A stretch of DNA of 64,000 nt from assembly GCF_056746865.1 (NCBI RefSeq), contig NZ_CM163382.1; one strand, written 5' to 3'. How positions within the stretch are numbered: the first letter of the stretch is position 1; every line of letters starts with the position of its first letter. The translations under genes were made by a program, and so were the position numbers. Below, in pieces: positions 7,744-64,000 of the stretch. Below the pieces are notes generated by a model, which saw only the letters and a list, made by a program, of their open reading frames with translations, did no database searches and was not told where the DNA came from.

Positions 7744-7754
7744 GGGCAAATCCA

Positions 7755-7759
7755 GTAGG
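7755..7759. repeat. 5-bp target-site duplication (GTAGG), right copy
   Basis: Identical to 6419..6423. Confidence 0.85.
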
Positions 7760-39302: not shown

Positions 39303-39342
39303 TCGTCACTTAATAATTTTGGTTTACCGCGGGCGCGCGTTG

Positions 39343-41115: not shown

Positions 41116-41126
41116 GGAAAGCCATC

Positions 41127-41378: not shown

Positions 41379-41382
41379 TCTG

Positions 41383-45329: not shown

Positions 45330-45332
45330 AGG

Positions 45333-45755: not shown

Positions 45756-46357
45756 AATTTTTACCACTGCTGGCGCTGCTGATTAGCCCGTTTGTGAGCG
45801 CCCTGAACCTGGACGATCTTCAGCAACGCTTTACCGAACAGCCGGTGATCCGCGCTCATTTCGATCAAACCCGGACGATTAAAGATCTGCCGCAGCCGCT
45901 ACGATCTCAGGGCCAGATGTTGATCGCCCGCGACCAGGGGCTGTTGTGGGATCAAACCTCACCATTTCCCATGCAACTATTGCTGGACGATAAACGCATG
46001 GTGCAGGTGATCAACGGTCAGCCGCCGCAAATCATCACGGCAGAAAATAACCCGCAGATGTTCCAGTTTAACCACCTGCTGCGCGCGCTGTTCCAGGCCG
46101 ATCGCAAAGTGCTGGAACAAAATTTCCGCGTCGAATTTGCTGACAAAGGCGAAGGCCGCTGGACACTGCGCCTGACGCCGACCACCACGCCGCTGGATAA
46201 AATTTTCAACACCATCGATCTCGCCGGGCAAACCTATCTGGAGAGCATTCAGCTTAATGATAAACAGGGCGATCGCACCGATATCGCTCTTACCCAACAT
46301 CAACTGACGCCAGCGCAACTGACCGATGACGAACGCCAACGTTTTGCCGCCCAGTAA
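45752..46357 (+). CDS. LolA-like outer-membrane lipoprotein carrier protein
   Basis: 201-aa ORF with a signal peptide (MKFLPLLALLISPFVSA); LolA-like length and composition. Confidence 0.65.
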   Translation: MKFLPLLALLISPFVSALNLDDLQQRFTEQPVIRAHFDQTRTIKDLPQPLRSQGQMLIARDQGLLWDQTSPFPMQLLLDDKRMVQVINGQPPQIITAENNPQMFQFNHLLRALFQADRKVLEQNFRVEFADKGEGRWTLRLTPTTTPLDKIFNTIDLAGQTYLESIQLNDKQGDRTDIALTQHQLTPAQLTDDERQRFAAQ

Positions 46358-48644
46358 ACGCCCGGCGCTGTTATGGGGGATCGTCTGCCTGGTCATGGCG
46401 GCGGCGTTGCTGATCCTGTTGCCGCAATCACGACTGAACAGTAGCGTGCTGGCTATGTTACCCAAACAGGCGATGGGCGATATTCCTCCAGCGCTGAATG
46501 ACGGCTTTATGCAGCGTCTGGACCGCCAACTGGTGTGGCTGGTCAGCCCCGGTAAAGAGGCTAATCCCAGGGTGGCTCAGGAGTGGCTGACGCTGCTGCA
46601 AAAATCCGCTGCGCTCGGCGACGTTAAAGGGCCAATGGATGCCGCCAGCCAGCAGGCGTGGGGAGCGTTTTTCTGGCAGCACCGCAACGGCCTGGTTGAC
46701 CCCGACACCCGCGCGCGCCTGCAAAACGGCGGCGAAGCGCAGGCGCAGTGGATCCTCTCCCAGCTTTATTCTGCGTTCTCCGGGGTAAGCGGTAAGGAGC
46801 TGCAAAACGATCCGCTGATGTTAATGCGTGGCTCGCAGCTGGCGATGGCGAAAAACGGCCAGCGTTTGCGGCTGATGGACGGCTGGCTGGTGACGCAGGA
46901 TCCCCAGGGCAACTACTGGTATCTGCTGCACGGCGAACTGGCGGGATCGTCGTTTGATATGCAGCAAACCCACCAGCTCATCACGACCCTGAATACGCTG
47001 GAAAAGGATCTGAAAACGCGTTACCCGCAGGCGCAGTTGCTCTCGCGCGGCACGGTGTTTTACAGCGATTACGCCAGCCAACAGGCGAAGCAGGATATCT
47101 CCAACCTGGGCGTGGCAACGCTGCTGGGGGTGATATTACTGATTGTGGCGGTGTTCCGCTCTTTACGCCCATTGCTGCTTTGCGTGATTTCCATCGGCAT
47201 CGGCGCGCTGGCGGGAACGGTCGCCACCTTGTTGATTTTCGGCGAATTACACCTGATGACGCTGGTGATGAGCATGAGCGTTATCGGCATTTCCGCTGAC
47301 TACACGCTCTATTACCTCACCGAGCGGATGGTGCACGGCAATGACGTTTCGCCGTGGCAAAGCCTGGCGAAAGTGCGCAATGCCCTGCTGCTGGCGCTGC
47401 TCACCACCGTGGCGGCGTATCTGATTATGATGCTCGCCCCCTTCCCCGGCATTCGCCAGATGGCGATTTTTGCCGCCGTCGGGTTGAGCGCCTCCTGTCT
47501 GACCGTCCTGTTCTGGCATCCGTGGCTGTGCCGTGGCCTGCCGGTGCGTCCGGTTCCGGCGATGGCGCTGATGCTGCGCTGGCTGGCTGCGTGGCGGCGT
47601 AATAAAAAACTGTCGCTGGGTCTGCCCGTCGCGCTGGCGCTGTTTTCGCTGGCGGGGATGTCAATGCTGCGCGTCGACGACGATATCTCGCAGTTACAGG
47701 CGCTACCGCAGCATATTCTGGCCCAGGAGAAAGCCATTACCGCCCTGACCGGACAAAGCGTCGATCAAAAATGGTTTGTAGTTTACGGCGACTCTCCACA
47801 GCAAACATTGCGGCGGCTGGAGAAATTTACCGCCTCGCTGGAGAATGCGAAAAAAGAGGGGCTTATCAGCAACTACCGCACCATTCCGCTGAACTCCCTG
47901 GCGCGGCAGGAGGAAGATTTACATCTGCTGAAAACGGCTGCCCCGACAGTAACAAAAGCACTGCAAAATGCCGGGCTGGCGGCAGTGAATCCGGATCTCA
48001 ACGCCATGCCAGTGAAGGTCGATGAATGGCTGGCAAGCCCCGCCAGTGAAGGCTGGCGTCTGCTGTGGCTGACGCTGAAAAACGGCGAAAGCGGCGTACT
48101 GGTGCCGGTTGAAGGGGTTAAAAGTAGCGCGTTGTTGCAGGAAATCGCCAGCGATTACCCTGGCGGCATTGCCTGGGTTGATCGCAAAAGCACCTTTGAT
48201 GAGTTGTTCGCACTTTACCGCTACGTCTTAACCGGTTTGTTGCTGGTGGCGCTGGCGGTGATTGCCTGCGGCGCAGTGGCCCGCCTCGGCTGGCGCAAAG
48301 GGCTTATCAGCCTGGTGCCTTCGGTACTTTCGCTGGGCTGCGGTCTGGCAGTGCTGGCGATGAGCGGGCAGGCGGTGAATCTCTTTTCGCTACTGGCGCT
48401 GGTGCTGGTGCTTGGCATCGGCATCAATTACACGCTGTTTTTCAGTAATCCGCGCGGTACACCGTTAACTTCCCTACTGGCGATCACGCTGGCAATGCTC
48501 ACCACCTTGCTGGCGCTGGGAATGCTGGTATTCAGCGCCACCCAGGCCATCAGCAGTTTTGGCATTGTGCTGGTGAGCGGTATTTTCACCGCCTTCCTGC
48601 TTTCGCCGCTGGCTATGCCCGATAAAAAGAGAACAAAAAAATGA
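46326..48644 (+). CDS. MMPL/RND-superfamily exporter (start codon uncertain)
   Basis: 772-aa ORF with two blocks of about 6 TM helices separated by soluble domains. Confidence 0.75.
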   Translation: MTNANVLPPSKRPALLWGIVCLVMAAALLILLPQSRLNSSVLAMLPKQAMGDIPPALNDGFMQRLDRQLVWLVSPGKEANPRVAQEWLTLLQKSAALGDVKGPMDAASQQAWGAFFWQHRNGLVDPDTRARLQNGGEAQAQWILSQLYSAFSGVSGKELQNDPLMLMRGSQLAMAKNGQRLRLMDGWLVTQDPQGNYWYLLHGELAGSSFDMQQTHQLITTLNTLEKDLKTRYPQAQLLSRGTVFYSDYASQQAKQDISNLGVATLLGVILLIVAVFRSLRPLLLCVISIGIGALAGTVATLLIFGELHLMTLVMSMSVIGISADYTLYYLTERMVHGNDVSPWQSLAKVRNALLLALLTTVAAYLIMMLAPFPGIRQMAIFAAVGLSASCLTVLFWHPWLCRGLPVRPVPAMALMLRWLAAWRRNKKLSLGLPVALALFSLAGMSMLRVDDDISQLQALPQHILAQEKAITALTGQSVDQKWFVVYGDSPQQTLRRLEKFTASLENAKKEGLISNYRTIPLNSLARQEEDLHLLKTAAPTVTKALQNAGLAAVNPDLNAMPVKVDEWLASPASEGWRLLWLTLKNGESGVLVPVEGVKSSALLQEIASDYPGGIAWVDRKSTFDELFALYRYVLTGLLLVALAVIACGAVARLGWRKGLISLVPSVLSLGCGLAVLAMSGQAVNLFSLLALVLVLGIGINYTLFFSNPRGTPLTSLLAITLAMLTTLLALGMLVFSATQAISSFGIVLVSGIFTAFLLSPLAMPDKKRTKK

Positions 48645-49225
48645 TCAAACCCACATTCTGGCGAGCGTTCGCCCTGACCGCTACGCTTATCCTCACCGGC
48701 TGTAGCCACTCGCAACCGGAACAGGAAGGTCGCCCACAGGCGTGGCTGCAACCTGGCACGCGCATCACGCTGCCGGCACCAGGGATTTCGCCCGCCGTTA
48801 ATTCCCAGCAACTATTGAGCGGCAGCTTCAACGGCAAAACCCAGTCTCTGCTAGTGATGCTTAACGCCGACGACCAGAAAATCACCCTTGCCGGGCTGTC
48901 GTCGGTCGGCATTCGTCTGTTTCTGGTGACCTACGATGCGCAAGGGCTACGCGCCGAGCAATCCATCGTCGTCCCACAGTTGCCGCCCGCAAGTCAGGTG
49001 CTGGCTGACGTGATGCTTAGCCACTGGCCGATTAGCGCCTGGCAACCGCAACTCCCCGCTGGATGGACGCTTCGCGACAACGGTGACAAACGCGAACTGC
49101 GTAACGCCAGCGGCAAACTGGTCACGGAAATCACCTATCTGAATCGCCAGGGAAAACGCGTGCCAATCAGCATTGAACAGCATGTCTTTAAATACCACAT
49201 CACCATTCAATATTTAGGTGACTGA
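48641..49225 (+). CDS. Lipoprotein (DUF3261-like, possibly LolB-like)
   Basis: 194-aa ORF with a lipobox (LTGC). Confidence 0.65.
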   Translation: MIKPTFWRAFALTATLILTGCSHSQPEQEGRPQAWLQPGTRITLPAPGISPAVNSQQLLSGSFNGKTQSLLVMLNADDQKITLAGLSSVGIRLFLVTYDAQGLRAEQSIVVPQLPPASQVLADVMLSHWPISAWQPQLPAGWTLRDNGDKRELRNASGKLVTEITYLNRQGKRVPISIEQHVFKYHITIQYLGD

Positions 49226-50396
49226 TATGATTTACATTTCCGCCGTCGGCATGATCAACGCCCTGGGAAATAACCTTGACGATATCGCAGCCAACCTGAC
49301 TCGCGGTGTCGCTCCCGGCATGCGCCCGCGCGCAGGCTGGTTGCAGGGGCATCCGCAGGCGGTCCTGGCTGGCGTGGATGGCGAGCTTCCGGTTATCCCG
49401 GAAAAATTCGCTGCGCACCGCTCGCGCAACAATCAGATCCTGCTGGCGGCGCTGGCGCAGATCCAGCCGCAGGTTGATGACGCTATTGCGAAATATGGCC
49501 GCGAGCGCATCGCGATTGTGCTTGGCACCAGCACCTCCGGCCTGCATGAAGGCGACACGCACGTTAACCTGCGCACCCACGGGCAGCCGAGCACCACGTG
49601 GCACTATGCACAACAAGAGCTCGGCGATCCGTCGCGTTTTCTCAGCCACTGGCTGGCGCTCGACGGCCCAGCTTATACCCTTTCAACCGCCTGCTCCTCC
49701 AGTGCCAGAGCGATGATCAGCGGGCGCAGGCTTATCGAGGCGGGGCTGGTCGATGCCGCCATTGTGGGTGGTGCAGACACCCTGAGCCGAATGCCGATTA
49801 ACGGTTTTCACAGCCTCGAATCGCTCTCGCCAACCTTATGTCAGCCGTTTGGTCGTGACCGCGCGGGCATCACCATTGGCGAAGGTGCGGGGCTGATGCT
49901 GTTGACCCGCGAACCGCAGCCCATCGCCTTGCTGGGCGTCGGTGAATCGAGCGACGCTTATCATATTTCGGCCCCGCATCCACAGGGCGAAGGCGCAATT
50001 CGCGCCATTAACCAGGCGCTGGCTGATGCGCAGCTTACGCCGGATGAGGTGGGCTATATCAACCTGCACGGCACCGCCACACAACTCAACGACCAGATTG
50101 AATCGATGGTGGTAAACGCCCTGTTTGGCGAACGCGTACCGTGCAGCTCCACCAAACATTTGACCGGACACACGCTGGGCGCAGCGGGCATTACCGAAGC
50201 GGCAATCAGTATGTTGATCTTAGAGCGTGATTTACCGCTGCCCGCTCAGGACTTCAGCCTGTCGCCGCGCGATCCCACGCTGCCACCGTGCGGCATTATC
50301 GAACAACCACAGCCGCTGGCACGTCCGGTGATCCTGTCCAATTCCTTCGCCTTTGGCGGCAATAACGCCAGCATTCTGCTCGGGAGGGTTTCGTGA
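49218..50396 (+). CDS. Beta-ketoacyl-ACP synthase (KS, ApeO-like)
   Basis: Active-site Cys (LSTACSSSARAM), HGTAT, and NSFAFGGNNASIL. Confidence 0.85.
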   Translation: MTDMIYISAVGMINALGNNLDDIAANLTRGVAPGMRPRAGWLQGHPQAVLAGVDGELPVIPEKFAAHRSRNNQILLAALAQIQPQVDDAIAKYGRERIAIVLGTSTSGLHEGDTHVNLRTHGQPSTTWHYAQQELGDPSRFLSHWLALDGPAYTLSTACSSSARAMISGRRLIEAGLVDAAIVGGADTLSRMPINGFHSLESLSPTLCQPFGRDRAGITIGEGAGLMLLTREPQPIALLGVGESSDAYHISAPHPQGEGAIRAINQALADAQLTPDEVGYINLHGTATQLNDQIESMVVNALFGERVPCSSTKHLTGHTLGAAGITEAAISMLILERDLPLPAQDFSLSPRDPTLPPCGIIEQPQPLARPVILSNSFAFGGNNASILLGRVS

Positions 50397-50857
50397 GCCA
50401 CTATTTATCCCCCGGCGCTTATCTGCCCCACGACGCGCCCATGTTACTGCTGGAAGAAGTGGTGAGCGTCAGCGATGACAGCGCGGTGTGCCGTGTAACG
50501 GTCTCGCCCAGTGGCGTACTGGCACCGTTTCTCGACCCGGACGGCAATCTCCCTGGCTGGTTTGCCCTTGAATTGATGGCGCAAACCGTCGGCGTCTGGT
50601 CTGGCTGGCATCGCCACCAGCAGGGCAAAAACAGTATTGAGTTAGGGATGGTACTGGGCGCACGTGAATTGCTTTGCGCCGCTGGCATTCTGCCCGCAGG
50701 CCAGACGCTGACCATTACCGTCAAACTCCTGATGCAAGACGATCGCTTCGGCAGTTTTGAGTGCAGCATCAACAACGGCACGGCAACGGGCCGCATTAAC
50801 ACCTTCCAGCCGACCGCGGAAGAACTTACCACCCTGTTTCAACAAGGAGCGTCCTGA
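50393..50857 (+). CDS. Hotdog-fold dehydratase (FabA/FabZ-like, ApeP-like)
   Basis: 154-aa ORF overlapping the neighbouring genes; hotdog-like length and motif spacing. Confidence 0.6.
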   Translation: MSHYLSPGAYLPHDAPMLLLEEVVSVSDDSAVCRVTVSPSGVLAPFLDPDGNLPGWFALELMAQTVGVWSGWHRHQQGKNSIELGMVLGARELLCAAGILPAGQTLTITVKLLMQDDRFGSFECSINNGTATGRINTFQPTAEELTTLFQQGAS

Positions 50858-51588
50858 TGAGTCGTTCAGTTCTGGTTACTGGTGCCAGCAAAGGCATTGG
50901 TCGCGCCATCGCCTGCCAACTGGCGGCAGACGGCTTTAATATTGGCGTTCACTATCACCGTGACGCCACAGGCGCTCAGGAAACGCTAAATGCCATTGTC
51001 GCCAACGGGGGTAACGGGCGTTTGCTCAGTTTCGACGTCGCAAACCGCGAACAGTGTCGGGAAGTGCTGGAGCACGAAATCGCGCAAAACGGTGCCTGGT
51101 ACGGCGTGGTTAGTAACGCCGGGATCGCCCGCGATGCCGCTTTTCCGGCTTTAAGCGATGACGACTGGGATGCGGTGATCCACACCAATCTCGACAGTTT
51201 CTACAACGTTATTCAGCCGTGCATTATGCCGATGATCGGCACACGCCAGGGTGGACGCATCATCACGCTGTCCTCGGTTTCCGGCGTGATGGGCAATCGC
51301 GGACAGGTGAACTACAGCGCTGCCAAAGCCGGAATTATCGGCGCAACAAAAGCACTGGCTATCGAACTCGCGAAGCGCAAAATCACCGTCAACTGCATCG
51401 CGCCGGGGCTTATTGATACCGGGATGATCGAAATGGAAGAGAGCGCCCTGAAAGAGGCAATGTCGATGATCCCCATGAAACGCATGGGCCAGGCGGAAGA
51501 AGTTGCCGGGCTTGCCAGCTATTTAATGTCTGATATTGCGGGTTACGTCACCCGCCAGGTTATTTCCATCAACGGAGGGATGTTATGA
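50857..51588 (+). CDS. 3-oxoacyl-ACP reductase (SDR, FabG-like)
   Basis: VLVTGASKGIGRAIA Rossmann motif and YSAAKAG catalytic motif. Confidence 0.88.
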   Translation: MSRSVLVTGASKGIGRAIACQLAADGFNIGVHYHRDATGAQETLNAIVANGGNGRLLSFDVANREQCREVLEHEIAQNGAWYGVVSNAGIARDAAFPALSDDDWDAVIHTNLDSFYNVIQPCIMPMIGTRQGGRIITLSSVSGVMGNRGQVNYSAAKAGIIGATKALAIELAKRKITVNCIAPGLIDTGMIEMEESALKEAMSMIPMKRMGQAEEVAGLASYLMSDIAGYVTRQVISINGGML

Positions 51589-52814
51589 CACGTCGCGTAG
51601 TGATTACAGGAATGGGCGGCGTGACTGCCTTTGGTGAAAACTGGCAGGACGTTTCCGCGCGTCTGCTGGCGTATGAGAATGCAGTGCGCAAAATGCCGGA
51701 GTGGCAGGTCTACGATGGTCTGCACACCCTGCTTGGCGCGCCTGTTGATGATTTCACGCTACCGGAGCACTACACCCGCAAGCGTATCCGTGCGATGGGC
51801 CGCGTGTCGCAAATGTCGACCCGTGCCAGCGAGCTGGCGTTAGAGCAGGCAGGATTGATTGGCGATCCGATATTAACCAGCGGCGAAACGGGCATTGCGT
51901 ACGGTTCATCGACCGGCAGTACCGGTCCGGTGAGCGAATTTGCCACCATGCTGACGGAAAAGCACACCAATAACATCACCGGCACCACCTATGTACAGAT
52001 GATGCCGCACACCACCGCCGTTAATACCGGTCTGTTTTTCGGCCTGCGCGGGCGGGTGATCCCGACCTCCAGCGCCTGTACCTCCGGCAGCCAGGCGATC
52101 GGTTATGCGTGGGAAGCCATTCGCCACGGTTATCAAACGGTGATGGTTGCTGGTGGTGCCGAAGAGTTATGCCCTTCAGAAGCAGCGGTATTTGATACAC
52201 TTTTCGCCACCAGCCAGCACAATGATGCGCCGAAAACCACACCTTCACCGTTCGATGAAAACCGCGACGGGCTGGTGATTGGTGAAGGCGCAGGTACGCT
52301 GATTCTTGAAGAACTGGAGCACGCCAAAGCGCGCGGCGCGACCATTTACGGTGAAATCGTCGGCTTTGCGACTAACTGCGACGCGGCACATATTACCCAG
52401 CCTCAGCGTGAGACCATGCAATATTGTATGGAAAAATCGTTAAAAATCGCCGGGTTAAGTGCAAGTGATATCGGCTATATTTCGGCGCATGGTACGGCGA
52501 CCGATCGTGGTGATATGGCAGAAAGTCTGGCGACAGCAACCATTTACGGTGATAATGTGCCGCTCTCCTCGCTGAAAAGTTATTTTGGTCATACGCTTGG
52601 TGCCTGTGGCGCGCTCGAAGCCTGGATGAGTCTGCAAATGATGCGCGAAGGTTGGTTTGCGCCTACGCTAAACCTGAATAAACCAGACCCGAACTGTGGC
52701 GCGCTGGATTACATCATGCATGAAGCCCGCAAGGTTGATTGTGAGTTTTTGCAGAGTAACAACTTTGCCTTTGGCGGCATTAATACATCCATCATCATTA
52801 AACGTTGGCCCTGA
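51585..52814 (+). CDS. Beta-ketoacyl-ACP synthase (KS, ApeR-like)
   Basis: Active-site Cys (SSACTSGSQAIG), HGTAT and GHTLGACG. Confidence 0.88.
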   Translation: MTRRVVITGMGGVTAFGENWQDVSARLLAYENAVRKMPEWQVYDGLHTLLGAPVDDFTLPEHYTRKRIRAMGRVSQMSTRASELALEQAGLIGDPILTSGETGIAYGSSTGSTGPVSEFATMLTEKHTNNITGTTYVQMMPHTTAVNTGLFFGLRGRVIPTSSACTSGSQAIGYAWEAIRHGYQTVMVAGGAEELCPSEAAVFDTLFATSQHNDAPKTTPSPFDENRDGLVIGEGAGTLILEELEHAKARGATIYGEIVGFATNCDAAHITQPQRETMQYCMEKSLKIAGLSASDIGYISAHGTATDRGDMAESLATATIYGDNVPLSSLKSYFGHTLGACGALEAWMSLQMMREGWFAPTLNLNKPDPNCGALDYIMHEARKVDCEFLQSNNFAFGGINTSIIIKRWP

Positions 52815-52815
52815 T

Positions 52816-53403
52816 ATGTATCGGATAGTTCTGGGGAAAGTTTCGACCTTAAGCGCAGCTCCACTGCCACCGGCTTTACGCGATCAAGCACCGCAAGGTC
52901 CACGACGCGAACGCTGGCTGGCGGGGCGTGCATTACTTTCGCACACGCTTTCCCCGCTACCGGAGATCATCTATGGCGAACAAGGCAAACCGGCATTCGC
53001 GCCGGAAACGCCGCTATGGTTCAACTTAAGCCATAGCGGTGACGATATCGCCCTGCTGTTGAGCGATGAAGGCGAAGTCGGCTGCGATATCGAAGTGATT
53101 CGCCCGCGCGCCAACTGGCGCTGGCTGGCGAACGCCGTGTTCAGCCTCGGGGAACACGCTGAGATGGACGCCGTGCATCCCGATCAGCAACTGGAAATGT
53201 TCTGGCGCATCTGGACGCGCAAAGAAGCCATCGTTAAACAGCGTGGCGGCAGCGCCTGGCAAATCGTCAGCGTAGACAGCACCTATCACTCATCACTGTC
53301 AGTCAGCCATTGTCAGCTAGAAAATTTAAGCCTGGCGATCTGCACCCCTACCCCCTTTACGCTCTCCGCCGACAGTGTGCAATGGATCGATTCAGTTAAC
53401 TGA
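52816..53403 (+). CDS. acpT: 4'-phosphopantetheinyl transferase (holo-ACP synthase 2)
   Basis: Internal start MYRIVLGKVSTLSAAPLPPALRD gives 195 aa; the ATG lies 1 bp after the stop of the upstream KS gene. Confidence 0.88.
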   Translation: MYRIVLGKVSTLSAAPLPPALRDQAPQGPRRERWLAGRALLSHTLSPLPEIIYGEQGKPAFAPETPLWFNLSHSGDDIALLLSDEGEVGCDIEVIRPRANWRWLANAVFSLGEHAEMDAVHPDQQLEMFWRIWTRKEAIVKQRGGSAWQIVSVDSTYHSSLSVSHCQLENLSLAICTPTPFTLSADSVQWIDSVN

Positions 53404-53448
53404 TCCGCCCACCCGACTGCCCATCTATTGATCCAGAACAGGTAATCA

Positions 53449-53476
53449 GTATGACGAATACTTAAAATCGTCATAC
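53449..53476 (+). promoter_or_regulatory. NikR operator in the nikA promoter
   Basis: GTATGA-N16-TCATAC dyad, 38 bp upstream of the nikA ATG. Confidence 0.85.
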
Positions 53477-53513
53477 TTATTTCCGCCATCTATTTTAATC
53501 CATTGGGGTTACC

Positions 53514-55088
53514 ATGTTCTCTACACTCCGCCGCACTCTATTTGCGCTGCTGGCTTGTGCGTCTTTTATCGTCCATGCCGCTGCACCAGATGAAATCACC
53601 ACCGCCTGGCCGGTGAATGTCGGGCCACTAAACCCGCACCTTTACACGCCTAACCAGATGTTCGCCCAGAGCATGGTTTATGAACCATTGGTGAAATATC
53701 AGGCAGACGGTTCGGTGATCCCGTGGCTGGCAAAAAGCTGGACTCATTCTGAAGATGGCAAAACCTGGACCTTCACCCTGCGTGATGACGTGAAATTCTC
53801 CAACGGCGAACCGTTTGATGCAGAGGCGGCGGCAGAAAACTTCCGCGCAGTGCTCGATAACCGTCAACGTCACGCCTGGCTGGAGCTGGCAAACCAGATT
53901 GTTGATGTCAAAGCACTCAGTAAAAACGAGCTGCAAATCACCCTGAAAAGCGCCTACTATCCTTTCCTGCAAGAACTGGCCCTGCCCCGTCCTTTCCGTT
54001 TTATCGCACCCTCGCAGTTTAAAAACCACGAAACCATGAACGGAATTAAAGCGCCGATTGGCACCGGGCCGTGGGTTTTACAGGAATCGAAACTGAATCA
54101 GTACGATGTCTTCGTCCGTAACGAAAACTACTGGGGCGAAAAGCCAGCGATTAAAAAGATCACCTTTAACGTGATCCCGGACCCGACTACCCGCGCGGTG
54201 GCGTTTGAAACTGGCGATATCGACCTGCTGTACGGAAACGAAGGGTTATTACCGCTCGATACCTTCGCCCGCTTTAGCCAGAACCCGGCTTACCACACCC
54301 AACTGTCACAGCCGATCGAAACCGTGATGCTGGCGCTCAATACCGCCAAAGCCCCCACCAACGAGCTGGCCGTACGTGAAGCTCTTAATTACGCGGTAAA
54401 CAAAAAATCGCTGATTGATAACGCGTTGTATGGCACCCAGCAGGTCGCCGACACCCTGTTTGCTCCTTCTGTACCCTACGCCAACCTCGGCCTGAAACCG
54501 CGCCAGTACGATCCGCAGAAAGCGAAAGCGTTGCTGGAAAAAGCCGGTTGGACGTTGCCTGCGGGCAAAGACATCCGCGAGAAAAATGGTCAGCCGCTGC
54601 GCATTGAACTGTCGTTCATCGGCACCGATGCGTTAAGTAAATCGATGGCGGAAATCATTCAGGCTGATATGCGCCAGGTTGGCGCAGATGTCTCGCTGAT
54701 TGGCGAAGAAGAGAGCAGTATCTATGCTCGTCAGCGCGACGGTCGTTTTGGCATGATTTTCCACCGCACCTGGGGCGCGCCATACGATCCACACGCCTTC
54801 CTGAGTTCAATGCGCGTACCGTCGCACGCTGATTTCCAGGCACAGCAAGGATTAGCCGACAAGCCGCTGATTGATAAAGAGATCGGCGAAGTGCTGGCAA
54901 CCCATGACGAAACGCAACGTCAGGCGCTGTATCGCGACATTCTGACCCGTCTGCATGACGAGGCGGTTTATCTGCCTATCAGTTACATCTCAATGATGGT
55001 GGTATCAAAACCGGAGCTGGGTAACATCCCCTACGCGCCGATCGCCACCGAAATTCCGTTCGAACAGATTAAACCGGTGAAACCTTAA
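53514..55088 (+). CDS. nikA: Periplasmic nickel-binding protein
   Basis: 524-aa ORF with a signal peptide. Confidence 0.93.
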
Positions 55089-56028
55089 TGTTGCGTTACG
55101 TATTACGCCGCTTTCTGCTGCTGATCCCGATGGTGCTCGCCGCCTCGGTGATCATTTTTTTGATGCTGCGCCTCGGCACCGGCGACCCGGCGCTTGATTA
55201 TTTGCGTTTATCTAACCTGCCGCCGACGCCGGAGATGCTGACCTCTACCCGCACCATGCTGGGGCTGGATCAGCCGCTGTACGTGCAATACGGCACCTGG
55301 CTATGGAAGGCGCTGCATCTTGATTTCGGTATCTCATTCGCCAGCCAACGCCCGGTGCTGGACGATATGCTGAACTTCCTGCCCGCCACGCTGGAACTGG
55401 CGGGTGCGGCGCTGGTATTAATTCTGCTCACCTCCGTGCCGCTCGGTATCTGGGCTGCACGCCACCGCGATCGCTTGCCCGATTTCGCCGTCCGTTTCAT
55501 CGCGTTTCTCGGCGTGTCGATGCCCAACTTCTGGCTGGCGTTTTTGCTGGTGATGGCGTTTTCGGTATATCTGCAATGGCTACCCGCGATGGGCTACGGC
55601 GGCTGGCAGCACATCATTTTGCCTGCGGTTTCCATTGCCTTTATGTCGCTGGCGATTAACGCGCGGCTGCTGCGCGCCAGTATGCTGGACGTCGCCGGTC
55701 AGCGTCACGTCACCTGGGCGCGGCTACGCGGCCTGAATGACAAACAGACCGAGCGTCGTCATATTCTGCGCAATGCCTCGCTGCCGATGATCACCGCCGT
55801 GGGGATGCACATTGGCGAACTGATTGGCGGGACGATGATTATCGAAAACATCTTTGCCTGGCCGGGCGTCGGGCGCTATGCGGTGTCGGCGATTTTTAAC
55901 CGTGACTATCCGGTGATCCAGTGCTTTACGCTGATGATGGTGGTGGTTTTTGTGGTCTGTAATTTGATTGTCGATTTGCTCAACGCCGCGCTGGACCCGC
56001 GCATTCGTCGTCATGAAGGAGCCCACGC

Positions 56029-56032
<4 letters not shown>
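55088..56032 (+). CDS. nikB: Nickel ABC transporter permease
   Basis: 314-aa membrane ORF. Confidence 0.93.
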
Positions 56033-58835
<2,803 letters not shown>

Positions 58836-59024
58836 CACCTCCCAACGCGCCGTTATTTCCTGACGGCGCAGTAGACTTCTGCCAAATATCGACTCACGTC
58901 ACATTTTTTTGATCACGATTTAGTCCCCTAAAATGTGAGACGCTTCGATCCTCTTTTTCGCCTGTTCACCTACTATACGCTTGAAGTTGTCCATGATTGT
59001 CCATAGACAACTGTAAATGTTCAG

Positions 59025-59779
59025 GTGCGCGCCATGAAATCATTGAGTAAGTCGTCACAAATACCGCTCTATCAACAAGTGGTGGAGTGGATAAGAGAAA
59101 ATATTTATACCGGGGATCTGGTGGAAGACGATCGCATTCCTTCGGAATACCAGATTATGGATATGCTGGAAGTGAGTCGGGGAACCGTTAAAAAAGCTGT
59201 CGCCCAACTGGTAAAACAAGGCGTGTTGATTCAGGTCCAGGGGAAGGGAACATTTGTCAAAAAAGAGAACGTGGCATATCCGTTAGGTGAAGGATTATTG
59301 TCATTCGCGGAATCGCTGGAAAGCCAGAAAATACACTTTACCACTGAAGTTATTACGTCACGGATTGAACCGGCTAATCGTTATGTGGCAGAGAAATTAA
59401 GAATAACGCCCGGTCAGGATATTCTTTACCTTGAGCGTTTACGTTCAATTGGTGATGAAAAAGCGATGCTGATAGAGAACCGTATCAATATTGAGCTATG
59501 CCCCGGCATCGTGGAAATCGATTTTAATCAACACAATTTATTTCCAACAATAGAAAGTTTGTCGAAAAGAAAAATTCGTTACTCGGAAAGTCGCTATGCC
59601 GCGCGATTAATTGGTAATGAACGCGGTCATTTTTAGATATCTGTGAAGATGTACCCGTTTTGCATCTGGAGCAATTAGTCTTTTTCTCCCGAGAGTTACC
59701 CGTTGAGTTTGGCAACGTCTGGTTAAAAGGAAATAAATATTATCTGGGCACCGTGCTGCAACGGCGGGAATTGAGTTAA
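59025..59779 (+). pseudogene. GntR/HutC-family transcriptional regulator, frameshifted in a T5 run (about 59630..59634)
   Basis: N-terminal winged HTH (IPSEYQIMDMLEVSRGTVKKAV) and a UTRA-like C-terminal domain; the frame stops at 59634..59636, but the +1 frame continues DICEDVPVLHLEQLVFFSRELPVEFGNVWLKGNKYYLGTVLQRRELS to 59779. Confidence 0.65.
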
Positions 59780-59803
59780 ATACACTTTTTTATGAGGAAT
59801 AAA

Positions 59804-60277
59804 ATGCAAGGCATACAGTTTCAGGAAAATTATATTCAACGACTTCCGGCAGGGTTAAGCGTTGAACAGATCATCCGTCAGTTAGCGCAACCGTTGGTTG
59901 CTGCTGAGCTGGTGGTCCCTGATTTTGCCGATCACGTACTGAAACGTGAGGCGACGTACCCAACGGGGCTGCCTACCGAACCACCGTGCGTCGCCATTCC
60001 GCACACGGACCATAAATATGTCAGGCACAATGCAATTGCCGTCGGCATCCTTCCGGAACCGGTAGAGTTTGCCGATATGGGCGGCGATCCTGACCCCGTA
60101 CATGTCAGGGTGATTTTTTTGCTCGCCTTAAGTGAAAGTAATAAACAATTAAATGCCCTGGGCTGGATTATGGAGATGATTCAGGATACGCCCTTTATGC
60201 GCGCCCTGCTTACGATGGAAACAACAGAAATACACACAGTAATCTTAAACAAAATGAAAGAACGAGGTGAAATATGA
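59804..60277 (+). CDS. PTS EIIA component (galactitol-family)
   Basis: Phosphorylation-site His motif VAIPHTDHKYV, GatA-like; GAGGA ribosome-binding site upstream of the ATG at 59804. Confidence 0.75.
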   Translation: MQGIQFQENYIQRLPAGLSVEQIIRQLAQPLVAAELVVPDFADHVLKREATYPTGLPTEPPCVAIPHTDHKYVRHNAIAVGILPEPVEFADMGGDPDPVHVRVIFLLALSESNKQLNALGWIMEMIQDTPFMRALLTMETTEIHTVILNKMKERGEI

Positions 60278-60555
60278 GTCAAACCATTTTATTTGTCTGC
60301 GCCACGGGTATTGCCACATCCACGGCGGTAACAGAAAAAGTCATGGAATATTGTAAAGAGCACGGTCTTAACGTCAATTATTCCCAAACCAACGTTGCCT
60401 CTTTACCTGGAAATACTGACGGCGTAGCACTGGTAGTCTCAACGACTAAAGTGCCTTATGAACTCGACGTCCCGGTGGTTAACGGCTTGCCGATTATTAC
60501 CGGTATTGGCGAAGAGAAAGTACTGGCGCAAATTGTTTCGATCCTTAAAAAGTAA
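60274..60555 (+). CDS. PTS EIIB component (galactitol-family)
   Basis: 93-aa ORF with the active-site Cys motif ILFVCATGIATS. Confidence 0.8.
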   Translation: MSQTILFVCATGIATSTAVTEKVMEYCKEHGLNVNYSQTNVASLPGNTDGVALVVSTTKVPYELDVPVVNGLPIITGIGEEKVLAQIVSILKK

Positions 60556-60631
60556 TTAATAATAATTAATTTCAACCCACTCCATCAGGCGCTAACGCGA
60601 GGTGCGCTCTCGCCTGAAAAAGAGGTTTATT

Positions 60632-61990
60632 ATGAACGATATCGCGCATACCCTCTATAATATTGTGCAATATATATTGGGATTTGGTCCCACGGTAATG
60701 TTGCCGTTGGTGTTATTTATTCTTGCTCTCTTTTTTAAAGTAAAACCCGCTAAAGCCTTACGTTCGTCATTAACGGTCGGCATTGGTTTTGTCGGTATTT
60801 ATGCCATTTTCGATATTCTTACCAGCAATGTCGGGCCAGCGGCCCAGGCGATGGTTGAACGCACCGGAATTAATTTACCGGTGGTGGATTTAGGCTGGCC
60901 GCCGCTTTCCGCTATTACATGGGGTTCGCCAATTGCCCCGTTTGTTATTCCCCTGACTATTCTGATTAACGTGGCGATGCTGGCGTTAAATAAAACCCGC
61001 ACCGTTGACGTAGATATGTGGAACTACTGGCATTTTGCCCTTGCCGGTACGCTGGTTTATTACAGCACCGGCAGCCTGTTCTTTGGTTTGCTGGCAGCGG
61101 CGATTGCTGCGGTGGTAGTACTTAAACTCGCCGACTGGTCTGCGCCACTGGTACAAAAATACTTTGGCCTGGAAGGGATCTCTTTGCCGACGCTCTCTTC
61201 GGTGGTGTTCTTTCCGGTCGGTCTGTTGGTCGACAAAATCATCGACCATATCCCCGGCCTCAATCGTATTCATATCGATCCGGAAACCGTACAGAAAAAG
61301 TTTGGCATATTCGGCGAACCGATGATGGTTGGTACTATTCTGGGCATTCTGCTCGGCGTAATTGCCGGATACGATTTCAAAAAAGTCTTGCTGCTTGGCA
61401 TCAGCATTGGCGGTGTGATGTTCATCCTGCCACGCATGGTTCGCATTCTGATGGAAGGTTTATTACCGCTGTCTGAAGCCATTAAAAAGTATCTCAATGC
61501 CAAATACCCTGACCGTGACGATCTCTATATCGGCCTGGATATCGCCGTTGCCGTAGGTAACCCAGCGATTATCTCCACCGCCCTGCTGCTGACGCCAATC
61601 TCGGTCTTTATCGCGTTTGTCCTTCCGGGTAATGAAGTCCTGCCGCTTGGCGACCTTGCCAACCTGGCGGTAATGGCGTCGATGATTGCTTTAGCCAGCC
61701 GTGGCAACATTTTCCGCACCGTTCTGGCGGCGATTCCGGTGATTATTGCCGATCTGTGGATTGCGACTAAAATCGCGCCGTTTATTACCGGAATGGCGAA
61801 AGACGTTAATTTCAAATTTGCCGAAGGCTCCAGCGGCCAGGTCTCCAGTTTCCTTGATGGCGGTAACCCGTTCCGCTTCTGGCTGCTGGAAATCTTCAAC
61901 GGCAATCTCATCGCCATTGGTCTGGTGCCGGTTATCGCCCTGGTACTGTATGGTATTTTCCGAATGACGCGGAGCACGGTTTATGCCTGA
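60632..61990 (+). CDS. PTS EIIC permease (GatC-like)
   Basis: About 452 aa; LGFGPTVMLP and GPAAQAMVERTGINLPVVDLGWP resemble GatC. Confidence 0.8.
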   Translation: MNDIAHTLYNIVQYILGFGPTVMLPLVLFILALFFKVKPAKALRSSLTVGIGFVGIYAIFDILTSNVGPAAQAMVERTGINLPVVDLGWPPLSAITWGSPIAPFVIPLTILINVAMLALNKTRTVDVDMWNYWHFALAGTLVYYSTGSLFFGLLAAAIAAVVVLKLADWSAPLVQKYFGLEGISLPTLSSVVFFPVGLLVDKIIDHIPGLNRIHIDPETVQKKFGIFGEPMMVGTILGILLGVIAGYDFKKVLLLGISIGGVMFILPRMVRILMEGLLPLSEAIKKYLNAKYPDRDDLYIGLDIAVAVGNPAIISTALLLTPISVFIAFVLPGNEVLPLGDLANLAVMASMIALASRGNIFRTVLAAIPVIIADLWIATKIAPFITGMAKDVNFKFAEGSSGQVSSFLDGGNPFRFWLLEIFNGNLIAIGLVPVIALVLYGIFRMTRSTVYA

Positions 61991-63491
61991 TAACAGCGCA
62001 GCTATCGTTATCGATATTGGCACCACCAATTGCAAAGTCACCTGCTTTTCCTGCCTGGACGCAACGACGTTGGGCGCGCATAAATTCGTGACGGCAAAAC
62101 AGATCTCCCCACAGGGCAATGTCGATTTCGATATCGACGCCCTCTGGCAGGAGGTCCGCCAGGCGATAGCGCAACTGAACGCCGCTTCGCCGCTGCCAGT
62201 CAGGCGGATAAGCATTGCCAGTTTTGGCGAGTCAGGCGTGTTCCTTGACGAGCATGGCGAGATCCTGACGCCAATGCTGGCATGGTATGACCGTCGCGGT
62301 GAAGAGTATCTGGCTACACTTAGCGAGGCAGACAGTGCGGCACTTTATGACATTTGCGGGTTACCGCTGCACAGCAATTACTCTGCCTTCAAAATGCGTT
62401 GGTTGCTGGAACATTACCCACTGCGTAATCGCCGCGGCCTGCGTTGGCTACATGCGCCGGAAGTACTGCTCTGGCGGCTGACCGGCGAACAGCGCACGGA
62501 TATCACCTTAGCCAGCCGCACGCTGTGTCTTGACGTGCGCAAAGGCGAATGGTCAGCGAAAGCGGCGGCGTTGTTACACGTTCCCTGTTCAGCATTTGCG
62601 CCATTGGTGCAGCCAGGCGAACACGCCGGATGGGTCAGCGAGTCGCTCTGCAAAACGGTTGGGTTCTCGCAACCGGTCAGCGTGACGCTGGCCGGACATG
62701 ACCATATGGTGGGTGCGCGAGCGTTGCAGATGATGCCGGGCGATATCCTTAACTCGACGGGGACCACAGAAGGCATTCTGCAACTGGATACACAACCGAC
62801 GCTGGATGAACAGGCCAAACGTGACAAGCTGGCAAACGGCTGTTATTCGCTTGCAAACCAGTTCACCCTGTTTGCGTCGCTGCCCGTGGGCGGTTTCGCT
62901 CTGGAGTGGCTGCGTAACACGTTCCGGCTAACCGATGAGGAGATCGCCGCATCACTTACTCGCGGACATGCGGATTACCTGGCGGGGAACTGGTCGCTCG
63001 ATGACATTCCCCTCTTTATTCCACATCTTCGCGGTTCGGGTTCGCCCTATAAAAATCGCCATACTCGTGGATTATTTTATGGGCTTGGCGATACGTTAAA
63101 TATCGACATGTTAATTGCCAGCGTCTCACTGGGATTAACCATGGAATTTGCCAACTGCTTCGCCTGTTTTAATGTGCCTGGCACCAGCGCGTTAAAAGTG
63201 ATAGGTCCGGCAACCCAAAATCCCCTTTGGCTGCAATTAAAAGCGGATATTTTACAGCGTCCGGTTGAAGCAATTGCATTTAACGAGGCGGTTTCTGTCG
63301 GAGCATTATTAACTGCCGCACCGGATATTCCACCGCCGCAAGTTACCATAGCCCAACGTTTGTTACCGAATCGGGCGAGATACCATCAATTACAGCGTTA
63401 TCAGCACAAATGGAAAAGCTGGTATCAGTTGAAATTACAGCAAGAAGGCGTGATGCCATTACACCATCGGGAGGAGCACTATGTTGAGTAA
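61983..63491 (+). CDS. FGGY-family carbohydrate kinase
   Basis: 502-aa ORF whose N-terminus AIVIDIGTTNCKV is a sugar-kinase/actin-fold phosphate-1 motif. Confidence 0.75.
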   Translation: MPDNSAAIVIDIGTTNCKVTCFSCLDATTLGAHKFVTAKQISPQGNVDFDIDALWQEVRQAIAQLNAASPLPVRRISIASFGESGVFLDEHGEILTPMLAWYDRRGEEYLATLSEADSAALYDICGLPLHSNYSAFKMRWLLEHYPLRNRRGLRWLHAPEVLLWRLTGEQRTDITLASRTLCLDVRKGEWSAKAAALLHVPCSAFAPLVQPGEHAGWVSESLCKTVGFSQPVSVTLAGHDHMVGARALQMMPGDILNSTGTTEGILQLDTQPTLDEQAKRDKLANGCYSLANQFTLFASLPVGGFALEWLRNTFRLTDEEIAASLTRGHADYLAGNWSLDDIPLFIPHLRGSGSPYKNRHTRGLFYGLGDTLNIDMLIASVSLGLTMEFANCFACFNVPGTSALKVIGPATQNPLWLQLKADILQRPVEAIAFNEAVSVGALLTAAPDIPPPQVTIAQRLLPNRARYHQLQRYQHKWKSWYQLKLQQEGVMPLHHREEHYVE

Positions 63492-63750
63492 AACCGTGGA
63501 GGTCAGAAACAGTACTGGCCTGCATGCACGTCCGGCGGCGTGTCTGGTGAAAGCCGCCAAAAAGTTTAGCTGTAAAGTGACGCTGCATTATGAGGGTAAT
63601 GATATTAATGCCACCAGCATGATGAATATTATGCGCGCCGGAATAAAAGGCGGCAAAACGGTGGAAATACGCTGCGAAGGCGATGATGAAAATGAGGCAA
63701 TACAAACTCTCACCACCTTATTTCGTGACCGCTTCGGTGAAGCTGAATAA
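63481..63750 (+). CDS. HPr-like phosphocarrier protein
   Basis: 89-aa ORF with the active-site His motif NSTGLHARPAA. Confidence 0.8.
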   Translation: MLSKTVEVRNSTGLHARPAACLVKAAKKFSCKVTLHYEGNDINATSMMNIMRAGIKGGKTVEIRCEGDDENEAIQTLTTLFRDRFGEAE

Positions 63751-63780
63751 TTAACTGATATTAAAAGATGAGGTTTTCAA

Positions 63781-64000
63781 ATGCCATTAGTTAATGGACG
63801 GATACTGCTCGACCGCATTCAGGAAAAACGGGTATTAGCGGGCGCGTTTAATACCACCAATCTGGAGACGACAATTTCAATTTTAAACGCTATTGAGCGT
63901 TCGGGATTGCCTAACTTCATTCAGATTGCGCCCACCAATGCACAACTCTCGGGATACGATTACATTTATGAAATCGTGAAACGTCACGCCGATAAAATGG
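63781..64000 (+). CDS. Class II ketose-bisphosphate aldolase (GatY/KbaY-like), N-terminal fragment; continues beyond the window end
   Basis: MPLVNGRILLDRIQEKRVLAGAFNTTNLETTISILNAIERSGLPNFIQIAP... resembles class II aldolase N-termini. Confidence 0.7.
   Translation, partial: MPLVNGRILLDRIQEKRVLAGAFNTTNLETTISILNAIERSGLPNFIQIAPTNAQLSGYDYIYEIVKRHADKM

What the first reader, a model, noticed from the sequence alone, without database searches (positions are those of the whole stretch)
59025..59779. HutC/GntR-type regulator of the PTS island is frameshifted in a T5 homopolymer
The frame ends ...GNERGHF at the TAG at 59634..59636, immediately after a run of five T (59630..59634). One additional T would give ...ERGHFLDICEDVPVLHLEQLVFFSRELPVEFGNVWLKGNKYYLGTVLQRRELS, a typical UTRA-domain C-terminus, to the TAA at 59777..59779. 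This is either a genuine slippage mutation (which would likely derepress the adjacent PTS operon) or a homopolymer sequencing error.
Basis: seen in the sequence. Interest (0 to 1): 0.55.

Follow-up and report, generated by a model that had tools for sequence, protein, structure and literature searches.

The report
Real frameshift kills a sugar-operon repressor
A one-base deletion in a run of T's has truncated the repressor gene in front of an accessory sugar-uptake operon in this E. coli; the mutation is genuine and circulates in a clonal lineage, but it is an ordinary pseudogene that reference annotation already flags.

Summary
T5 lies at 59630-59634, the TAG at 59634-59636, and the next frame continues to the TAA at 59777-59779. 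Intact orthologs have T6 and are 248 aa. PDB 3HFI is a crystal structure of residues 79-248 of this protein. The real start is ATG 59034, not GTG 59025, so the product is 200 aa.

It is not a sequencing error. The window comes from an E. coli genome that is not among 5426 complete genomes. The same T5 allele on the same ST69-like haplotype is in three complete genomes from Egypt, China and Laos, and PGAP marks all three "frameshifted". The exact 200-aa product is on 234 contigs. One is a SPAdes-style contig identical to the window over 6.6 kb. T5 also arose separately in one O157:H7 genome.

The truncation removes two of the six core strands of the UTRA domain. It also removes the family's most conserved motifs and the parts that form the dimer contact and half the sugar pocket in NagR. 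Loss of function is a strong inference. Derepression of the co-oriented operon (IIA, IIB, IIC, FGGY kinase, HPr, aldolase) is plausible but untested. A conserved operator-like repeat lies at 58985-59012.

The finding is ordinary, so interest is low.

The parts
58985..59012 (+). Candidate operator. It has two direct TTGTCCAT half-sites 10 bp apart (58987-58994, 58997-59004), and the second forms the palindrome TTGTC-CATA-GACAA (58997-59010).
   Evidence: The repeats were found. The region is invariant in three E. coli haplotypes. The same architecture lies upstream of the orthologous cluster in Salmonella (TTGTACATGATTGTCTATAGACAA), Klebsiella (two sites) and Enterococcus (three tandem half-sites), while the rest of the intergenic DNA is unrelated. 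In the whole 64-kb window the palindrome matches exactly only here; at up to 2 mismatches there is one other site, at 17431. Binding has not been tested.
59034..59636 (+). Truncated reading frame of the HutC-type GntR regulator (200 codons plus TAG). It keeps the wHTH domain (residues 12-75) and UTRA residues 98-200.
   Evidence: The PGAP start is ATG 59034. The exact 200-aa product is P0002.
59630..59634 (+). T5 homopolymer. It is T6 in 1630 of 1634 complete genomes that carry the locus.
59634..59636 (+). Premature TAG stop created by the 1-bp deletion.
59636..59779 (+). Out-of-frame remnant that encodes residues 202-248 of the intact protein, plus TAA. It is 100% identical in DNA to T6 relatives, with no secondary decay.
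   Evidence: Window 52950-64000 differs from the T6 genome EP91A by this single gap only.
59804..60277 (+). PTS EIIA (PTS_EIIA_2, galactitol/fructose type), 24 nt after the native regulator stop, with its own GAGGA Shine-Dalgarno sequence.
   Evidence: No terminator-like site lies between the regulator and IIA.
60274..60555 (+). PTS EIIB (galactitol type).
60632..61990 (+). PTS EIIC of the Gat family.
   Evidence: (TIGR00827, E = 1e-142).
61983..63491 (+). FGGY-family carbohydrate kinase.
63481..63750 (+). HPr-family phosphocarrier protein.
63781..64000 (+). 5' part of the class II ketose-bisphosphate aldolase gene, cut by the end of the window.
   Evidence: (NF005943, E = 9e-168 on the full gene from L001).

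Best explanation
The gene at 59034-59779 is a HutC-subfamily GntR regulator, the first gene of an accessory PTS/kinase/aldolase cluster that sits between nikR and yhhJ. A genuine, heritable one-base deletion (T6 to T5) has inactivated it. The most likely cause is replication slippage (inferred). The allele then spread by descent within an ST69-like clonal group. The 200-aa product keeps the DNA-binding wHTH domain. It lacks the last two core beta-strands of the effector/dimerisation (UTRA) domain, the C-terminal strand that mediates the family's dimer contact, and about half of the sugar pocket. It should therefore be unable to form the dimer that binds the operator. Because HutC regulators are typically repressors, the expected result is constitutive, inducer-independent transcription of the regulator-IIA-IIB-IIC-kinase-HPr-aldolase unit. 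That transcription may still depend on catabolite activation. Shown here: the lesion, its reality, its distribution, and what it deletes. Inferred: loss of dimerisation and DNA binding, repressor polarity, and derepression.
For: The lesion. Intact length and fold: Pfam finds GntR at 12-75 and UTRA at 98-236. 3HFI is residues 79-248 of the CFT073 ortholog. The AF2 model has pLDDT 83 and superposes on 3HFI with TM 0.97 and rmsd 1.2 A. Orthologs are 244-251 aa. What is lost: strands 208-219 and 222-231, two of six, and the invariant residues P208, L210, Q214, G227, V229, W230, L231, K232 and R244. In NagR/YvoA the equivalent region supplies strand beta10 and the R241/D240 salt bridges of the dimer (PMC2853113). 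It also supplies the sugar contacts Ile209, Arg211, Glu222, Ala224, Ser226 and Tyr228 (PMC4333415), mapped through the alignment. Not an artefact: the same allele is in three complete genomes from different countries, each with no other frameshifted gene in about 90 kb. The window is a fourth genome, with 2 private SNPs and a private IS2. The exact product is on 234 contigs in 307 blocks from NCBI, ENA and Logan, mostly 20-200 kb contigs. L011 (NODE_27..cov_10.4) is 100% identical to the window over 6603 bp. Lineage clustering: 3 of 142 ST69-like genomes versus 1 of 1492 others, Fisher p = 0.0024. Link to the operon: same strand, 24-nt gap, no terminator. Synteny of regulator, IIA/IIB/IIC-Gat, FGGY kinase and aldolase is conserved in Salmonella, Klebsiella and Enterococcus, with HPr present in the first two. 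The operator footprint is conserved.
Against: No expression, binding or read-level data were available. Repressor polarity is assumed from the family, not shown for this protein. The three complete T5 genomes could not be shown to be monophyletic: every SNP in the 64 kb is private to one genome, and the clone is star-like here. Part of the count could therefore reflect recurrence rather than descent. Some T5-bearing assemblies (the BNF* series) are full of indels and are not independent evidence. The isolated wHTH domain of NagR can still bind DNA in crystals (PMC4333415), so residual DNA binding by the truncated product is not excluded. T5 alleles on haplotypes other than the three tested would have been missed.
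Confidence: 0.8

Rival explanations
1. Homopolymer sequencing or assembly error: the real genome has T6 and an intact regulator.
For: Single-base deletions in homopolymers are the typical long-read error. Several T5-bearing assemblies (GCA_0165868xx BNF*) have 7-30 gaps in 6.6 kb. Another assembly (SW071620) has a frameshift in the neighbouring IIA gene. No reads for the window's genome are available.
Against: The identical allele is present in three other complete genomes from different laboratories. None of them has another frameshifted gene in about 90 kb. It is also in a SPAdes-style contig 100% identical to the window, with 16 similar places. It is confined almost entirely to one clonal haplotype, although the T-run and the 44 nt upstream are identical in the Nissle-type genomes (0 T5 there). 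Fisher p = 0.0024. A context-driven error would hit all lineages.
Confidence: 0.03
2. The truncated protein is not null. Its intact wHTH domain still binds the operator, and without an effector pocket it acts as a weak non-inducible repressor. The operon would then be silenced or unchanged rather than derepressed.
For: Residues 1-200 are unchanged and include the whole GntR domain. Isolated NagR DNA-binding domains bind operator DNA in crystals (PMC4333415). The operator has three half-sites that might allow cooperative binding.
Against: Dimerisation in the HutC family goes through the effector domain, using the C-terminal strand and salt bridges that are deleted here (PMC2853113). Removing two of six core strands and the invariant FGNVWLK motif should leave an unfolded domain prone to degradation. 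Monomeric wHTH domains bind weakly.
Confidence: 0.08
3. Leaky recoding: the ribosome slips by -1 on CAU-UUU-UAG. tRNA-Phe re-pairs on the U-run with the stop codon in the A site (a 'shifty stop'), producing a small amount of full-length wild-type regulator. Autoregulation partly compensates for the low yield.
For: A -1 shift after the UUU codon reads UUA-GAU... and reproduces the wild-type sequence ...GHFLDICED...RRELS exactly. Slippery runs followed by stop codons are known to raise spontaneous frameshifting (Weiss et al. 1987, from memory). The regulator appears to be the first gene of its own operon.
Against: The site is not conserved as a frameshift: 1630 of 1634 genomes are in frame. No stimulatory element was looked for or seen. 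Unstimulated slippage is usually about 1% or less. The allele looks like a recent accident, not a selected recoding signal.
Confidence: 0.04
4. Phase variation: the T-run is a contingency tract that switches reversibly between T6 (ON) and T5 (OFF).
For: T5 arose at least twice, in the ST69-like haplotype and in O157:H7 TX 265-1. There is one clean case in a third haplotype (L021). Monophyly of the ST69-like T5 genomes is unresolved.
Against: Six T is below the length at which homopolymers switch at useful rates. No T7 was found. Only 4 of 1634 genomes are T5. The gene has two A6 runs of equal length, so this tract is not special.
Confidence: 0.03

Closest known systems
PDB 3HFI, 'putative regulator from Escherichia coli CFT073' (structural genomics, 2009)
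   Same: It is the same protein: residues 79-248 of the CFT073 allele. It differs at 2 residues from the repaired window sequence. The model of the repaired protein superposes with TM 0.97 and rmsd 1.2 A.
   Different: 3HFI is the intact C-terminal domain. The window encodes only residues 1-200. No function or ligand is attached to the entry, and no paper in the searchable library cites it.
NagR/YvoA of Bacillus subtilis (GntR/HutC repressor; PDB 2WV0, 4U0V, 4WWC)
   Same: It has the same two-domain architecture and fold and is the best characterised structural homolog (E = 4e-20; Foldseek rank 2). It represses a sugar-catabolic operon, is released by a phosphosugar, and dimerises through the effector domain.
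   Different: Sequence identity is only about 25%. The operator (dre site) and effector (GlcNAc-6-P or GlcN-6-P) differ. NagR is not linked to a Gat-type PTS, FGGY kinase or aldolase.
Other HutC-type sugar-operon regulators (DasR, TreR, PhnF, MngR/FarR, FrlR, HutC)
   Same: They share the GntR wHTH plus UTRA domains. NCBIfam hits are all below the curated cut-offs, so this is the same subfamily but none of these equivalogs.
   Different: The best NCBIfam score is 118 bits against a cut-off of 275 (LSA1692 subfamily). This regulator belongs to an uncharacterised orthologous group defined by its own conserved gene neighbourhood.
RefSeq/PGAP pseudogenes CA696_RS01465 (CFSAN061770), HUW39_RS01295 (EC31), IQS14_RS01060 (EF5-18-41) and E4U08_RS01685 (O157:H7 TX 265-1)
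   Same: They have the same gene, the same T5 lesion and the annotation 'GntR family transcriptional regulator, frameshifted'.
   Different: The window's genome is a different isolate, with 2 private SNPs and a private IS2 insertion. The O157:H7 case is an independent event on another haplotype.

Membership tests
GntR superfamily, HutC subfamily | N-terminal winged helix-turn-helix of the GntR type (PF00392) | tested here: met
   PF00392 matches residues 12-75 with E = 3e-15. The domain lies entirely upstream of the frameshift, so it is present in the window's product.
GntR superfamily, HutC subfamily | Complete C-terminal UTRA / chorismate-lyase-fold effector domain (PF07702) | tested here: not met
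   The intact allele has UTRA at 98-236, model positions 2-140 of 141, confirmed by 3HFI. The window's product stops at residue 200. It lacks about 36 of 139 domain residues, including strands 208-219 and 222-231. The gene is a member by descent, but its product is not a complete member.
GntR superfamily, HutC subfamily | Homodimer formed through the effector domain (beta7-beta10' pairing and C-terminal salt bridges) | not testable with these tools
   This is described for YvoA and stated to be characteristic of the family (PMC2853113). By the alignment, the corresponding C-terminal segment lies in the deleted part.
GntR superfamily, HutC subfamily | Palindromic operator near the regulated promoter | tested here: inconclusive
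   TTGTCCATAGACAA plus a direct half-site lies at 58985-59012 and is conserved across four genera. This is a good phylogenetic footprint, but binding was not tested, and the spacing differs from the GT-N-TA-N-AC consensus (recalled from memory).
GntR superfamily, HutC subfamily | Repression relieved by a pathway metabolite (often a phosphosugar) | not testable with these tools
   The substrate of the Gat-type PTS / FGGY kinase / class II aldolase cluster is unknown. Extra dehydrogenases in the Klebsiella version hint at a polyol.
Pseudogene by homopolymer slippage | Single-base indel inside a homopolymer relative to intact orthologs, with homology continuing in the shifted frame | tested here: met
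   T5 versus T6. The downstream frame is identical to the intact C-terminus.
Pseudogene by homopolymer slippage | The allele is reproducible in independent assemblies, so it is not an artefact | tested here: met
Phase-variable contingency locus | Long, hypermutable repeat tract with both lengths interspersed among close relatives | tested here: not met
   The tract is only 6 nt. T7 is absent. T5 is in 4 of 1634 genomes. Interspersion within the clone is unresolved.
Programmed ribosomal frameshift (recoding) gene | The frameshift site is conserved among orthologs | tested here: not met
   1630 of 1634 E. coli copies and all orthologs from other genera are in one frame.

The most novel reading that the evidence does not exclude
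The T5 allele is not a dead gene but a leaky one. A -1 slip of tRNA-Phe on CAU-UUU-UAG, with the stop codon in the A site, would rebuild the exact wild-type regulator. Because the regulator appears to head its own operon, autoregulation would amplify the message until a little full-length repressor accumulates. This would give the lineage a raised but still inducible basal level of an uncharacterised sugar pathway. Together with recurrence of the same T6-to-T5 change in other lineages, the tract would then act as a low-frequency set-point switch rather than a simple knock-out.
Probability: 0.04. Interest if true: 0.45.

Novelty: already known. Interest (0 to 1): 0.15.

Why it matters
The value is modest and practical. 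The lesion marks a sub-lineage of an ST69-like clonal group; ST69 is, from my own knowledge, a common extraintestinal pathogenic and poultry-associated clone. It also offers a ready-made natural repressor knock-out for an uncharacterised pathway. That pathway (Gat-type PTS, FGGY kinase, class II aldolase) is present in about 30% of complete E. coli genomes and is conserved out to Enterococcus. Comparing T5 and T6 isolates, which are otherwise identical across this 11-kb region, could reveal the operon's regulon and substrate. The operator footprint at 58985-59012 gives a concrete binding-site hypothesis. For genome annotation the message is that the pseudogene call is correct and should not be 'repaired'.

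Tried and rejected
(1) I first took the window to be CFSAN061770, because the match was 100% over 901 nt. That was wrong. It differs by 6 SNPs and an IS2 insertion over 64 kb.

(2) I tried to show that the T5 genomes form one clade. All 8 variable sites in 64 kb are private to one genome. The private SNPs of CFSAN061770 and EF5-18-41 are shared by no other single-piece match listed among the complete genomes; one two-piece hit (Eco_23-3511) could not be judged. The IS2 junction is unique to the window. The clone is star-like here and the question stays open. Fetching hundreds more kb per genome was judged not worth the budget.

(3) I counted the second truncated protein, P0006, as a third independent origin. 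This held only in part. L021 is clean. L019 and L020 are noisy contigs. L022 is a contig-end artefact that actually carries T6.

(4) I suspected the island was the published 'vpe' PTS locus of uropathogenic E. coli. It is not: vpe lies next to deoK on a different island.

(5) Literature searches for nikR+yhhJ, CFSAN061770 and 3HFI gave nothing on this operon, on the sequencing platform or on the structure.

(6) The consensus promoter scan found no sigma-70 promoter on the + strand upstream of the regulator. The CRP-type promoter I propose by eye is only a lead.

(7) Rho-dependent polarity from the 167 nt left untranslated seems unlikely, because the stretch has more G than C (39 versus 28).

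Full report
**Observation.** The window reads ...AACGCGGTCA-TTTTT-AGATATC..., with five T at 59630-59634 and TAG at 59634-59636. The mechanical ORF 59025-59636 ends ...GNERGHF. The frame that starts at 59636 gives DICEDVPVLHLEQLVFFSRELPVEFGNVWLKGNKYYLGTVLQRRELS and stops at TAA 59777-59779. One correction concerns the start. PGAP starts the gene at ATG 59034 in related genomes. Orthologs from other genera begin M-K-(S/T/A)-L-S-K at that point. GTG 59025 overlaps the AGG ribosome-binding motif. The truncated product is therefore 200 aa and the intact protein 248 aa.

**What the intact gene looks like.** The locus is present in 1634-1637 of 5426 complete E. coli genomes. It sits between nikR and yhhJ. 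In an alignment with five orthologs, the only length difference is one T: T6 in EP91A, SW071620, Nissle 1917 and an O157:H7 strain, and T5 in the window and CFSAN061770. The intact protein (WP_001322918.1) has a GntR wHTH domain at residues 12-75 and a UTRA domain at 98-236. PDB 3HFI, 'putative regulator from E. coli CFT073', is a crystal structure of residues 79-248 of this protein. Homologs from Pantoea, Sodalis, Salmonella, Klebsiella, Yersinia and Erwinia, out to Enterococcus, Clostridium and bacilli, are 244-251 aa and cover 96-100% of the query.

**Is T5 real or an artefact?** The window is not any genome in the complete-genome collection. It is 100% identical to CFSAN061770 over the regulator region. 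Over 64 kb, however, it differs from CFSAN061770 by 6 SNPs and from EC31 by 2. It also carries an IS2 insertion at 6425-7753 that none of them has, and the junction occurs in none of the 5426 genomes. It is therefore a further independent assembly.

A 90-nt query centred on the run matches exactly in only three complete genomes:
- CFSAN061770, from raw-milk cheese in Egypt
- EC31, from a meat duck in China
- EF5-18-41, from chicken stool in Laos

PGAP annotates the gene as 'frameshifted' in all three. In about 90 kb around the locus, none of these assemblies has another frameshifted gene. They are therefore not riddled with indel errors.

Synthetic T5 queries on the other two main haplotypes gave 0 hits for the Nissle/CFT073 type and 1 for the O157 type. 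The O157 hit is strain TX 265-1, which is also flagged frameshifted. No T7 exists on the window haplotype. So T5 occurs in 3 of 142 ST69-like genomes and 1 of 1492 others (Fisher p = 0.0024). The T-run and the 44 nt upstream are identical in the Nissle-type genomes. A context-driven sequencing error would not respect lineage in this way. Inheritance does.

The exact 200-aa product (P0002) is in the 15-billion-protein collection. It is on 234 contigs in 307 blocks from NCBI, ENA and Logan, and most of those contigs are 20-200 kb long, as in short-read drafts. One of them, ENA ERZ1767616 NODE_27_length_223006_cov_10.4, is 100% identical to the window over 6603 bp, has T5 and has intact neighbouring genes; 16 similar places were not shown. 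Seven long-read-like BNF* assemblies also have T5. They carry 7-30 gaps in 6.6 kb, so I do not count them. I conclude that the allele is genuine and circulating. The residual chance that this particular window is an error is about 3%.

**One origin or several?** This is unresolved. All 8 variable sites among the four T5 genomes in 64 kb are private to one genome, and EC31 carries the ancestral state everywhere. More than 60 T6 genomes differ from the window at a single site over 25 kb, including a strain named 'ST69'. The private SNPs of CFSAN061770 and EF5-18-41 are shared by no other single-piece match listed; one two-piece hit (Eco_23-3511) could not be judged. The clone is star-like here. 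The lineage clustering argues that at least most ST69-like T5 genomes share one event. The O157:H7 case and one clean contig of a third haplotype (L021) show that the same deletion has also occurred independently. This is what a short homopolymer is expected to do. The gene also has two A6 runs, so the T tract is not special.

**What the truncation removes.** The model has six long strands in the UTRA sheet: 102-113, 129-139, 142-151, 183-192, 208-219 and 222-231. Stopping at residue 200 deletes the last two, the end of helix 194-201 and the C-terminal tail. Across 28 orthologs, down to 49% identity, this segment holds the invariant residues P208, L210, Q214, G227, V229, W230, L231, K232 and R244. 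It also holds the near-invariant L201, H211, L212, V216, N228, Y236 and G239.

In the characterised homolog NagR/YvoA, query residues 201-237 align to NagR 198-234. [quoted passage not shown] The sugar moiety of the effector is contacted by Ile209, Arg211, Glu222, Ala224, Ser226 and Tyr228 (PMC4333415). All of these lie in the part equivalent to the deleted segment. Loss of a folded effector/dimerisation domain, and hence of high-affinity operator binding, is a strong inference, but it is not shown.

**Link to the PTS operon, and mechanism.** The regulator is followed on the same strand, after 24 nt and with no terminator-like site, by these genes:
- IIA
- IIB
- a Gat-family IIC
- an FGGY kinase
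- an HPr
- a class II ketose-bisphosphate aldolase

In Salmonella, Klebsiella and Enterococcus the ortholog stays linked to IIA/IIB/IIC-Gat, the FGGY kinase and the aldolase (HPr is present in Salmonella and Klebsiella), in varying order.

Upstream of the regulator lies a repeat, AGTTGTCCATGATTGTCCATAGACAACT, at 58985-59012. It is invariant in three E. coli haplotypes. Its architecture recurs upstream of the cluster in:
- Salmonella (TTGTACATGATTGTCTATAGACAA)
- Klebsiella, before both IIA and the regulator
- Enterococcus (three tandem TTGTMYAT half-sites)

The surrounding intergenic DNA in these genera is unrelated. In the 64-kb window the palindrome matches exactly only at this site; at up to 2 mismatches there is one other site, at 17431. 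This is a good phylogenetic footprint for the operator.

By eye only, a -10-like TACTAT (58971-58976) lies 8 nt upstream of the repeat and is matched in position by TATCAT in Salmonella. A weak CRP-like site (58934-58949) would be centred near -41.5. The consensus scan found no sigma-70 promoter, which fits activator dependence, but this remains only a lead.

The most likely working model is this. The intact dimer sits on the repeat just downstream of the start site and blocks transcription of its own gene and the PTS/kinase/aldolase genes until a pathway metabolite binds the UTRA pocket. The T5 allele removes the repressor, so the unit is transcribed without inducer.

Polarity from the premature stop should be small. 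IIA has its own GAGGA Shine-Dalgarno sequence, and the 167 untranslated nt have more G than C. The rest of the island in the window is 100% identical to the T6 genome EP91A. There is therefore no secondary decay: the event is recent, or the operon is still useful.

**Rivals.**
- A sequencing error is very unlikely (see above).
- A truncated protein that still binds DNA and cannot be induced is possible, but it is disfavoured by the loss of the dimerisation elements.
- A -1 slip on CAU-UUU-UAG would rebuild the exact wild-type sequence and could make the allele slightly leaky. Nothing suggests it is selected, since 1630 of 1634 copies are in frame.
- Phase variation is not supported. The tract is short, there is no T7 and T5 is rare.

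**Comparison with what is known.** By descent the gene is a HutC-subfamily GntR regulator. The wHTH criterion is met. The complete-UTRA criterion is met by the intact allele and not by this product. It is none of the named equivalogs (PhnF, TreR, HutC, and others), because all NCBIfam scores are far below their cut-offs. It belongs to an uncharacterised orthologous group with a solved domain structure (3HFI) and no assigned ligand. The lesion itself is already recorded as a 'frameshifted' pseudogene in four RefSeq genomes. No paper on the operon was found in the searchable library, and the published vpe PTS locus is a different island.

**Verdict.** The feature is an ordinary lineage-specific pseudogene that annotation pipelines already flag. 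Its use is as a clonal marker and as a natural repressor knock-out for an unstudied sugar pathway. Interest is 0.15.

Noticed in passing
window 6425-7753 (context 5327-8332): An IS2 element is inserted into the 3' end of an Hcp-family tssD effector gene. TnpA is at 6470-6880 and TnpB at 6838-7743 (NCBIfam PRK09413 and PRK09409). The tssD gene (5327-6439) is 370 aa here and 392 aa in CFSAN061770, EC31 and EF5-18-41. The insertion lies just upstream of the gene's YrhA-family neighbour (7838-8332). The junction is found in none of 5426 complete E. coli genomes, so it is private to this isolate.
   Followed up: partly
window 58934-58976: A possible activator-dependent promoter for the regulator/PTS unit. 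There is a CRP-like TGTGAgacgctTCGAT (58934-58949) with three mismatches in the right half. A -10-like TACTAT (58971-58976) is positionally matched by TATCAT in Salmonella. This was seen by eye only. The consensus scan found no sigma-70 promoter on this strand.
   Followed up: no
window about 38300-52800: An aryl-polyene-type lipid biosynthesis cluster lies upstream of acpT-nikABCDE-nikR. It includes an ApeP-family dehydratase, a FabZ-like dehydratase, ketosynthases, ACPs, a glycosyltransferase, and LolA-like and MMPL proteins. It is accessory: only 566 of 5426 complete genomes cover at least 80% of the 25-kb query that contains it.
   Followed up: no
window 30380 and 38849: Two single-base differences (A in the window, G and C respectively in the others) are private to the window's genome. 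CFSAN061770, EC31 and EF5-18-41 do not share either, and none of more than 60 other near-identical genomes shares the one at 38849. The window therefore comes from an isolate outside the complete-genome collection.
   Followed up: partly
L003:1856-2328 (SW071620), L026:11105-11736 (O157:H7 TX 265-1), L006:26260-28995 (EC31): Other differences in or near the same island elsewhere. SW071620 has an intact T6 regulator but a frameshifted IIA gene. The O157:H7 version of the island carries a hicAB toxin-antitoxin pair between the aldolase gene and yhhJ. EC31 has an internal stop in rbbA.
   Followed up: no
L023:2991-11230 (Klebsiella, CP152609.1): The Klebsiella version of the cluster has the regulator in the middle rather than at the front. 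It adds two Zn-dependent alcohol/polyol dehydrogenase genes, which hints that the substrate is a polyol. Operator-like sites precede both IIA and the regulator.
   Followed up: no
L012-L018 (GCA_0165868xx / 0165870xx, BNF* and BNG* records): A series of near-complete assemblies carrying the T5 allele has nikB-nikE broken into many small ORFs and 7-30 gaps per 6.6 kb relative to the window. These are indel-rich assemblies whose frameshifts should not be taken at face value.
   Followed up: partly
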